DNA of 64,000 nucleotides. It comes from Candidatus Margulisiibacteriota bacterium (GTDB lineage Bacteria; Margulisbacteria; WOR-1; O2-12-FULL-45-9). Position 1 is the first letter of the stretch; the number at the start of each line of letters is the position of its first letter. The DNA lies in the NCBI GenBank assembly GCA_034723395.1, contig JAYEOW010000024.1, positions 1 through 64,000 on the forward strand. Direction: 5' to 3'. Below, in pieces: positions 30,101 to 33,100 of this stretch. The position numbers are program-made.

Positions 30101-33100
30101 ATACCGAAGCGACCGGGCCACGCCCTTTATCTAACCTGGATTCAATGACCACCCCTGAAACCGTTCCATCCGGATCCGCTTTCAGCTCCTGCATTTCGGC
30201 AACCAATAAGATCATTTCTAAAAGATCGTTAACTCCCTCTCCTTTTAAGGCGGAGGTGTGGACCATAACCGTTTTGCCGCCCCAGTCTTCGGGGACCAAC
30301 TCTAATTCGGATAATTGCTGTTTAACGCGATCGGGATTAGATTCTTCCCGGTCGATCTTATTGATCGCGACAATGATCGGAACCTTGGCCGCTTTGGCGT
30401 GGTCGATCGCTTCTAATGTCTGCGGTTTTACTCCGTCGTCGGCCGCAACCACAAGGATCGCGATATCAGTTACCCTGGCGCCGCGGGCGCGCATCGTAGT
30501 AAAAGCCTCGTGGCCGGGGGTATCAAGGAAAGTTACGTCTTTACCATGTACCTTTACCTGATAAGCTCCGATATGCTGGGTTATCCCTCCCGCTTCACCT
30601 TCGGCAACCCTGGTTTTCCTGATGGCATCGAGCAGTTTTGTCTTACCGTGGTCGACATGCCCCATAACGGTAACGATCGGAGAGCGATGTTTTAAGTTTT
30701 CAGCTTTAACTTTTACCTTACCCTCCGAAACTTTAGCGAAGGAGGATTTCTTGATCGTGATATCTTTTCCGAGGTTACCTGCGATCTCTTTGGCAGTTTC
30801 AGCGTTGATCCGCTGGTTGATATTGGCCATAATTCCCTTCATCATTAATGCCTTGATCAATTCTGAAGGCTTTACTTTTATTTTCTCGGAGAGGTCTTTG
30901 ACCGAAATATCATCGGTCTCGATAACCGGCCCTTTTGGAGCTTCAATTTTCTTCTCTTCTTTTATCGGCTCTTCAACAACTTCTTCTATTACTTCTACTT
31001 GCCCCGAGCTCTGTCGAGGGGCTTCAACTTTTTCTTCGGATGGTTTAACAACTTCTCTAACAACTTTAGCCGATTCTTCATCGATCGATGAAGCCGCGGT
31101 TTTGACTTCGACCCCTAAATCCTTGAGCATTTTTATGAGCTCTTTGGACGCAATTCCAAGCTCTTTTGCTAATGTCCCTACTTTTACTTTTTTCATTTTT
31201 ATTATTATATCCCTCACCCAATATTTTCTCTATCCTCCGGCCATCCAGACCGTCCCTCTCCCTGTGGGAGAGGGAGTGAATGAAAAACCATTAGACAGAT
31301 AGCGCCTGGGTGAGGGCTGTAAACCCTACCCTTTCAACTTTCCCAAAGCTTCTTCCGGCACAATACTATTTGCCGCTTTGACTTCAAACCCGAGTTCCTT
31401 TAACTTTTCGATCAACTCTTTGCTCTTAATCCCCATTTCTTTTGCAAGAGCACTAACTTTGACCTTTTGTTCTTTCTCTTCTTTTACTTCTTCTATCTTG
31501 GCTTTTGCCTTCACCGGTTTCTTGTCCTTCTCCGAGTCAGGAAGAATATCCAATTTCCATCCGGTAAGCTTTACCGCCAGGCGGACGTTGATCCCTTCCC
31601 GGCCGATCGCTAAAGAAAGCTCTTTATCCGGCACATAGACTTTGGCGGAGGTATCTTCCTCGTTAAGGACGATCTTGCTCGGTTTTGACGGGCTTAAGGC
31701 ATTGTTTATAAAGGCGACTGGATCTTTTTTCCATTCGATAATATCGACCCTCTCCGGCCCTAATTCTCTTACGATATTCTGGATCCGGTTTCCCATATGG
31801 CCGACGCATGTCCCGACCGCTCCGATCTTATTATCGTTTGAATATACTGCTATCTTAGTTCTCTTCCCCGCCTCTCTGGCGATCGCTTTGACCTCCAGCA
31901 CTCCATCTTTTATTTCCGGGACCTCAAGCTCAAAAAGTTTTTTTATTAATCCGGGATGCGATCTGGAAATTACGACGAACGGCCCGCGCGGGGTCTTTTT
32001 TGTTTCGACAATGTAAACTTTCACGCGTTCACGCTCGGAAAGCTGCTCGCCCGGGATCTGTTCCGGCGGAGTTAAGACGGTCTCAATCCGGCCGATGTTC
32101 ACCAGATAGCCGCCGTATTCCCTTCGCTGGACCGTTCCGGTTATCAATTCTCCCTGTTTTTTATCGAACTCACTAAAGGTCATTTCTTTTTCCGCTTCCC
32201 TGATCCTTTGGATGATAACCTGTTTTGCGGTTTGAGCGGCTAATCTGCCGAAATCTTTGGGGGTAACATCCTGCTTCTTTTTCCCTTCCTTGTGGATTAT
32301 CCTCACTTCTCCGTCATCTTTTATCTCCACTTCAAGGTTTTCTTCTTCCTCACCCCTGAAACGTTTTTTGGCAGCAGATAGTAAAGATACTTTTATAGCA
32401 TCAACGAGGACATCCTTGTTGATTCCCCGTTCTTTTTGGATTTCCTCCAACATCTCAGAAAATCGCTCTATTTTCATCAAAACTCCCTTGCCCCAAGGCT
32501 TATTAAAAAGACAAAAGTGGGAACTACGCCCACTTTTGCTTATCGTTCAGATTATACAGCCGGTGGCTGTACTTGTCAAACCTAGGCTACATCATTCCGC
32601 CCATTCCACCCATGCCTCCCATACCGCCTGGCGGCATTGCCGGAGCAGCCTTTTCTTTATCAGGCTTTTCGGCAATTAATGCCTCAGTGGTAAGGAGCAG
32701 TGATGCGATAGAAGCGGCATTCTGCAGCGCGGATCGGGTGACCTTTAAAGGATCGACAATGCCAAACTTGAACATGTCGCCATACTCAAAGTTCTGGGCA
32801 TTGAATCCGCTGCCATCCGTCTCTTTCTTGACATTTTCTACAACGACCGAGCCTTCCATGCCAGCGTTGGTGGCGATCTGCTTCAACGGCTCTTCCAGGG
32901 AGCGTCGAACGATCGATATCCCTACTCTTTCATCACCCTGGGTCCCGGCTTCAAGCTTCTCCAACATTGGTAAAATTCTTACAAAGCTCGATCCGCCTCC
33001 GGCGATGATCCCTTCCTCAACCGCAGCCCTGGTAGCAGAAAGGGCATCTTCGATCCGATGCTTCTTCTCTTTGAGCTCCGTCTCGGTCGGCGCGCCAGCT

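What a model noticed while it worked through the whole genome (the two positions that open the first line are those of the whole stretch)
31326..32477. NusA carries a C-terminal copy of the IF2 N-terminal domain
NusA (g00687) ends, after KH2 and a charged linker, in an IF2_N domain in place of the AR1/AR2 repeats; it is 61% identical to the first domain of the intact IF2 encoded next door. This is a natural fusion of the two parts that bind each other in the recently described E. coli NusA-IF2 complex.
Evidence so far: IF2_N at NusA 337-381 (E 1.6e-12) while IF2 keeps both IF2_N domains. 23 of the 24 closest NusA homologues carry PF04760, the domain is conserved in their alignment. In 9 of 10 other genomes of the order the match lies in a NusA-sized frame. 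IF2_N on two neighbouring genes: 19 of 30 in the order, 446 of 130,769 genomes overall.
(Added by a program. Inside this text positions count along the whole contig: contig position 1 is position 1 of the stretch shown here. "Call 12" and the like, gene names such as g00115 and contig names such as C1 are that model's own, and its searches are not shown. The text may have been shortened before it was handed on; [...] marks where a part breaks off. The agent that wrote the report below was given it as the finding of a first reader that could run no searches.)

Follow-up and report, generated by a model that had tools for sequence, protein, structure and literature searches.

The report
NusA with an IF2 N-domain tail
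In about half of the sampled genomes of an uncultured bacterial phylum, the transcription factor NusA ends in an old, conserved copy of a small domain from the translation-start factor IF2, which may give it an extra grip on the ribosome, but this is untested.

Summary
The fusion is real and wider than reported. NusA (31326-32477, minus strand) ends in a folded IF2_N domain (residues 337-381, Pfam E 2e-11) after a disordered linker; the adjacent IF2 keeps both its IF2_N domains. A model built from IF2 alone finds the tail in 67 of 126 complete NusA frames of the phylum (Margulisbacteria, by homologue names): 25 of 27 in the order, 42 of 99 outside it. I did not find it on NusA in the outgroup samples searched. 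The tail looks like an ancient N1-type paralogue (median 32% to own N1; this genome's 63-66% is the maximum), is under purifying selection (dN/dS about 0.10) and was probably lost often. The 'fused binding partners' reading is weak: E. coli binding is lost without NusA's AR1/AR2 fragment, which is absent here, and IF2_N also sits on many unrelated proteins. Best guess (0.4): a tethered arm that touches the 30S subunit, as IF2's N2 domain does at helix 16. Not found in the papers searched. The scan earlier noted IF2_N on sigma-A and RbfA, not on NusA.

The parts
31326..32477 (-). nusA, 383 aa: shortened NTD, S1, KH1, KH2, charged linker, IF2_N tail
31335..31469 (-). C-terminal IF2_N (N1-type) domain of NusA, residues 337-381
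   Evidence: Pfam E 2.3e-11; genome search; pLDDT about 85-91 in the full-length model; best structural match T. thermophilus IF2 N domain 4b3x, Z 6.5, rmsd 1.1 A over 46 residues
31470..31532 (-). Lys/Glu-rich linker, residues about 316-336
   Evidence: pLDDT under 50 at 323-336; 8-85 residues across 66 of 67 tails, one 184
31671..31871 (-). NusA KH domain, residues 203-269 (PF13184); KH2 follows to about residue 315
   Evidence: precomputed PF26594
29166..31196 (-). infB, intact IF2 of 676 aa
31053..31196 (-). IF2 N1 domain, closest paralogue of the NusA tail
30765..30914 (-). IF2 N2 domain; aligns to the helix-16-binding N2 of P. aeruginosa (7uiu) and E. coli IF2
32551..32579 (-). consensus sigma-70 promoter, 12 of 12 matches, upstream of nusA
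32511..32539 (-). terminator-like hairpin in the nusA leader (rimP-leader type attenuator)
   Evidence: PMC2965389 passages
31211..31316 (.). long palindromic repeat element between nusA and infB; not part of the fusion
   Evidence: fold z -5.8; related copies elsewhere in the genome

Best explanation
An early Margulisbacteria ancestor duplicated the N1 domain at the start of infB onto the end of the gene just upstream, nusA (inferred). The copy has since evolved on its own under purifying selection (shown) and was lost in many lineages (inferred). It is a folded module on a flexible linker (predicted). Most likely job (inferred, untested): an accessory arm. NusA's NTD holds RNA polymerase, S1/KH hold the nascent mRNA near the 30S entry channel, and the tail reaches the 30S surface, plausibly the helix-16 shoulder next to uS4 that IF2's N2 domain occupies during initiation and leaves afterwards. 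It would steady transcription-translation coupling directly instead of going through IF2 as E. coli does.
For: Real, folded and selected. Ancient paralogue: tails group apart from N1 domains, 4 label changes vs 55 shuffled; a tree holding 20 tails together scores 13.75 lnL higher than the free tree, p-AU 0.77; tails are no closer to their own N1 than to relatives' N1 in 8 of 8 families, within 0.03; tails occur in all three deepest branches of the phylum tree. The IF2_N fold binds 16S helix 16 (PMC9192638 passages) near uS4 (PMC12820379 passages), and N2 lets go on back-rotation. The tail's best structural match is the T. thermophilus N/G1 domain, which that paper describes as 30S-interacting. 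The column of P. aeruginosa Lys279, a helix-16 contact, is Lys/Arg in 32 of 67 tails, 65 of 120 N2 and 7 of 118 N1. In M. pneumoniae, NusA KH domains sit near S3/S4/S5 and a lineage-specific C-terminal extension crosslinks to 30S proteins (10.1101/2020.02.28.970111 passages).
Against: By sequence the tail is N1-type, not N2-type (66% vs 29% here), and N1 is unresolved in E. coli 30S complexes (10.64898/2026.06.26.734871 passages). The Lys279 column is not basic in 0 of 14 family-f2 tails and is mostly acidic in f45/f46; kin are not independent, and N2 alignment outside the class is poorer. The N2 extension that wraps helix 16 has no evident counterpart. Net charge is only about +1.3. No NusA density was seen on the E. 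coli 30S initiation complex. The tail is missing from 59 of 126 NusAs, with at least 11-16 state changes, so it is dispensable. No direct evidence of any partner.
Confidence: 0.4

Rival explanations
1. Built-in ligand: the tail folds back on NusA's own IF2-N1 site around KH2, and so blocks or gates IF2 binding or auto-inhibits free NusA, as AR2 does in E. coli.
For: E. coli N1 crosslinks to NusA and is predicted to touch KH2; the tail is N1-type and follows KH2 on a flexible linker; E. coli NusA is auto-inhibited by its own C-terminal domain.
Against: E. coli binding is lost without the AR1/AR2 fragment, absent here. The authors say neither end is conserved across bacteria. Linkers as short as 8-13 residues occur, which limits docking options.
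Confidence: 0.2
2. General nucleic-acid grip: the tail is a MerR/excisionase-like winged-helix module that binds nascent RNA or DNA near the elongating polymerase and tunes pausing or termination, with no ribosome link.
For: After IF2, the next structural matches are DNA-binding Par, RacA, Xis and BldC domains (Z 6.2-4.4); several basic columns are conserved in tails; IF2_N is fused to cold-shock and other unrelated proteins.
Against: Those Z-scores are in the range of a common arrangement; the solved ligand that I found for this domain family is rRNA; net charge is low.
Confidence: 0.2
3. Docking site for IF2: the tail stands in for AR1 and pairs with IF2's N1 or N2 (like with like), so the NusA-IF2 bridge of E. 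coli is rebuilt with different parts.
For: It sits where AR1 sits in E. coli; IF2 keeps N1 under selection; BldC/Xis-type domains oligomerise head to tail (recalled, not tested here).
Against: Tails do not track their own genome's N1; N1 evolves at a similar relative rate with and without the tail, 2.26 vs 1.99 times the G domain. No IF2_N self-association appeared in the papers read.
Confidence: 0.12
4. Tolerated duplication without function.
For: Absent from 59 of 126 NusAs; degenerate in some lineages (f31, f39, f40 fall below Pfam's cut-off); nusA and infB abut or overlap in many genomes, so such a fusion is easy to make.
Against: dN/dS 0.10 pooled over 20 pairs (0.11 in the 7 least saturated), lower than the linker (0.19) and IF2 N1 (0.18); amino-acid rate like IF2 N2's.
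Confidence: 0.05

Closest known systems
E. coli NusA-IF2alpha complex (Metelev and Johansson 2025, PMC12297416; abstract, sections 11, 13 and part 1 of 14 read)
   Same: Same two proteins, adjacent genes, same N1-type domain, located at NusA's C-terminal end.
   Different: There the contact is in trans, transient and needs NusA's AR1/AR2 fragment; here the domain is covalent, AR domains are absent, and IF2 keeps its own N1.
IF2 N sub-domains: T. thermophilus N/G1 (4b3x) and P. aeruginosa N2 on 16S helix 16 (7uiu; PMC9192638, passages read)
   Same: Same family (PF04760) and fold; the helix-16 contact Lys279 column is basic in about half of the tails.
   Different: Carried on NusA with no GTPase core; N1-like sequence; no evident counterpart of the rRNA-wrapping extension.
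Mycoplasma pneumoniae NusA C-terminal extension (10.1101/2020.02.28.970111, passages read)
   Same: Lineage-specific NusA tail after KH2; there it crosslinks to 30S proteins in the expressome.
   Different: That tail is proline-rich and disordered; this one is a folded domain taken from IF2.
NusA with AR1/AR2 (E. coli type)
   Same: Small helical module after KH2.
   Different: AR repeats are acidic HhH-type domains (recalled); no such family hits here.

Membership tests
NusA | NusA NTD, S1, KH1, KH2 in order, gene upstream of infB | tested here: met
   PF08529 and PF13184 over cut-off, PF26594 precomputed; the S1 region is a beta domain in the model but PF00575 did not hit; NTD about 30 aa shorter than usual in the phylum
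IF2_N (PF04760) | profile match above the curated cut-off | tested here: met
   43.7 bits vs 25.3; 18 of 21 further tails also pass
IF2_N (PF04760) | beta-helix-helix-beta-helix fold of the IF2 N domain | tested here: met
   predicted models; top match 4b3x Z 6.5, rmsd 1.1 A, 46 aligned; Foldseek top rows are IF2 but E above 0.001
IF2 N1 sub-type | closer to the distal N1 than to N2 | tested here: met
   66% vs 29% here; closer to N1 in most of 63 genomes, with exceptions where both are low; PDB profile hit is T. thermophilus N domain, E 1.7e-8
IF2 N2-type 30S anchor | Ser277-Val278-Lys279 turn contacting helix 16 | tested here: inconclusive
   Gly-Ile-Lys in this tail; Lys/Arg in 32 of 67 tails, none of 14 in family f2
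IF2 N2-type 30S anchor | binding to 16S rRNA helix 16 | not testable with these tools
   no protein-RNA docking or binding data available
E. coli-type NusA-IF2 interaction | NusA AR1/AR2 fragment needed for binding | tested here: not met
   no AR/HhH family on this NusA; KH2 is followed by linker and IF2_N only; requirement
E. coli-type NusA-IF2 interaction | IF2 with N1 on a flexible linker | tested here: met
   N1 at residues 1-48, spacer, N2 at 95-143
E. coli-type NusA-IF2 interaction | physical N1-NusA contact | not testable with these tools
   needs pull-down or crosslinking

The most novel reading that the evidence does not exclude
Margulisbacteria hard-wired transcription-translation coupling: their ancestor grafted IF2's ribosome-anchoring module onto NusA, so that RNA polymerase-bound NusA can hold the 30S shoulder or take over IF2's site once initiation ends. 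IF2_N would then be a portable ribosome-targeting tag, reused on NusA here and on other proteins elsewhere.
Probability: 0.3. Interest if true: 0.85.

Novelty: new variant of a known kind. Interest (0 to 1): 0.6.

Why it matters
The partner of IF2's N1 domain outside E. coli is open, and the authors of the NusA-IF2 paper ask whether the link is general. A phylum in which NusA itself carries a selected N1 copy offers a clean 45-residue test object, with natural tail-plus and tail-minus sister lineages. Finding its partner would show what N1-type domains bind and whether bacteria have a third way, beside NusG-uS10 and the Mycoplasma tail, of tying polymerase to ribosome. If it only folds back on NusA, it is a new auto-regulatory module.

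Tried and rejected
Complex prediction of NusA 100-318 with tail 335-383 gave no answer, score 0.00, partner fold uncertain; not used as evidence either way. Recent copying or gene conversion from infB: not favoured, though the AU test did not reject a clade of this genome's tail with its own N1 (17.9 lnL lower, p 0.154). Hand-over of N1's job to the tail: no clear relaxation of N1 in 18 tail-plus vs 16 tail-minus pairs. Apparent stand-alone IF2_N frames in G131 and G119 lie at contig ends. Outside the phylum: no hit in 89 outgroup NusA frames, 80 of them Gastranaerophilales-type; searches of 101, 81 and 120 genomes from three other phyla gave 11 matches in frames under 400 aa; 10 were fetched and none lay in a NusA frame, one at a contig edge was not fetched; the third search was insensitive (7 of 120 genomes matched at all). 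This is 'not found in those searched'. Two fused NusAs carry non-Margulisbacteria labels (P0072, P0273); mis-binning is my guess, not checked. Region-limited homologue search returned only 6 close tails. Atlas search gave no usable feature hit. Rfam found nothing in 31100-34800. Literature: searches listed no paper on a NusA-IF2_N fusion (listings only, except the papers named as read); in 10.64898/2026.02.08.704698, which measured NusA C-terminal lengths, 'fusion' and 'Margulis' do not occur in the main text, but its supplements were not seen and may list such proteins. PMC7159879 was irrelevant. The careful tree did not finish; the quick tree has 47 columns and few supported forks.

Full report
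Locus. On the minus strand the order is groES, groEL, nusA (31326-32477), infB (29166-31196), rbfA, a DHH phosphoesterase, truB, ligA (names from sequence). Homologue names point to Saganbacteria/WOR-1 within Margulisbacteria; the phylum name is inferred from such labels. RimP and YlxR, usual neighbours, were not found in this 97% complete genome.

Observation. NusA carries PF04760 at 337-381 (E 2.3e-11) and no AR/HhH family; IF2 has two IF2_N stretches. The genome has exactly these three matches. Tail and IF2 N1 share 26 of 41 residues but only 57% of nucleotides with pS 0.69, so this is no assembly duplication. AlphaFold2 with 106 sequences gives a confident tail (blocks of 85-91), a disordered linker (323-336) and pTM 0.68. 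The isolated tail model (pLDDT 73) matches the T. thermophilus IF2 N domain best (Z 6.5, rmsd 1.1 A, 46 residues), then Par, RacA, Xis and BldC winged helices.

Distribution. Of 146 genomes of the phylum, 130 matched NusA. I fetched loci holding a NusA frame for 128, of which 126 end in a stop. A profile built only from IF2 frames found a tail in 60 of 126 at E up to 1e-4 and 67 of 126 at 1e-2: 25 of 27 in the order, 3 of 30 elsewhere in the class, 39 of 69 elsewhere in the phylum, 21 of 45 families; reversed tails scored no better than E 0.099. Pfam confirms 18 of 21 tails from 20 families. Riflemargulisbacteria-labelled NusA also has it. This is a floor: G022 appears with a tail-built model, and G026/G027 look like decayed copies by eye. 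It was not found on NusA in the outgroup samples.

History. Tails cluster apart from N1 domains (4 label changes vs 55 shuffled; quick tree, 47 columns). In a 48-row subset that left out three long-branch families, holding the 20 tails together improves the likelihood (p-AU 0.77); one origin is allowed, not proven. Identity to the own N1 has median 32% (18-66%, n 63) with this genome the highest, and equals identity to relatives' N1. On a NusA+IF2 tree of 124 genomes the tail occurs in all three deepest branches, which are unresolved among themselves, and needs 16 changes, 11 forced by well-supported branches. I read this as one early gain and many losses; change counts cannot tell gain from loss.

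Selection. Pooled over 20 non-overlapping pairs, dN/dS is 0.07 for the NusA core, 0.10 for the tail, 0.18 for IF2 N1 and 0.19 for the linker; many pairs are near saturation, and the 7 least saturated give 0.05, 0.11, 0.18, 0.13. The tail's amino-acid rate is like IF2 N2's (1.82 vs 1.86 times the G domain), and N1 is not clearly relaxed where a tail exists. The domain does something where it is kept, and it has not replaced N1.

The E. coli link. PMC12297416 (abstract, sections 11, 13, part 1 of 14) shows IF2 domain I binding NusA directly, predicted at KH2/AR1 and lost when AR1/AR2 are deleted. That fragment is missing here, and a free N1 cannot deliver IF2. Among the 150 best representatives for the tail profile, 6 are NusA pieces and 36 reach an IF2 G domain; of 34 that I scanned, mostly chosen for a non-N-terminal match, several are TIR, kinase, cold-shock, caspase or methylase proteins. 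IF2_N is a mobile module, so fusion alone says little about who binds whom.

Mechanism. The solved ligand that I found for this family is 16S helix 16, bound by N2 through Ser277, Val278, Lys279 and Arg259 and released on back-rotation (PMC9192638 passages), near uS4 (PMC12820379 passages). In M. pneumoniae NusA's KH domains lie near S3/S4/S5 and its own tail crosslinks to 30S proteins. The Lys279 column is basic in 32 of 67 tails, 65 of 120 N2 and 7 of 118 N1, but in none of 14 family-f2 tails. I therefore favour an accessory 30S-contacting arm (0.4) over a built-in ligand (0.2), a general nucleic-acid grip (0.2), an IF2 docking site (0.12) and neutrality (0.05). Shown: fusion, spread, selection. 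Predicted: fold. Inferred: origin and every step of function.

Novelty. The architecture is visible in precomputed Pfam columns, but searches listed no paper on it; subscription journals and the supplements of 10.64898/2026.02.08.704698 were not seen. Earlier scan notes report IF2_N on sigma-A and RbfA and an alpha-CTD-like tail on another NusA; I did not test them. Verdict: new variant of a known kind, interest 0.6.

Noticed in passing
window 32511-32579 (-): Perfect sigma-70 promoter followed by a GGG/CCC terminator hairpin in front of nusA: the rimP-leader attenuator of PMC2965389, here without rimP. The motif lies near the nusA frame start in 25 of 26 order, 26 of 30 other class and 33 of 68 other phylum loci.
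   Followed up: yes
window about 32180-32477 (-): The NusA N-terminal domain is about 30 residues shorter than usual: motif distance 58-66 in 21 order members and 8 of 18 other class members vs 89-98 elsewhere. It may alter RNA polymerase flap binding.
   Followed up: partly
window 31211-31316: Long palindromic repeat between nusA and infB (z -5.8); about 55 sites of its core pattern in the genome; the end of truB near 27143 appears to overlap a similar element.
   Followed up: partly
whole genome G000: No RimP_N (PF02576) or YlxR (PF04296) match in a 97% complete genome; groES-groEL stands upstream of nusA instead.
   Followed up: partly
proteins P0123-P0271: IF2_N, often in 2-4 copies, is fused to TIR, Ser/Thr kinase, caspase, cold-shock, N6-methylase, KH and pentapeptide proteins; it may be a general targeting tag.
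   Followed up: partly
L223:1983-3167 and L224:2008-2946: IF2_N fused N-terminally to a starch/glycogen synthase catalytic domain (PF08323) in two genomes of another phylum.
   Followed up: no
L103 and L105 (G026, G027): NusA C-termini look like decayed, acidic IF2_N copies that neither profile detects.
   Followed up: no
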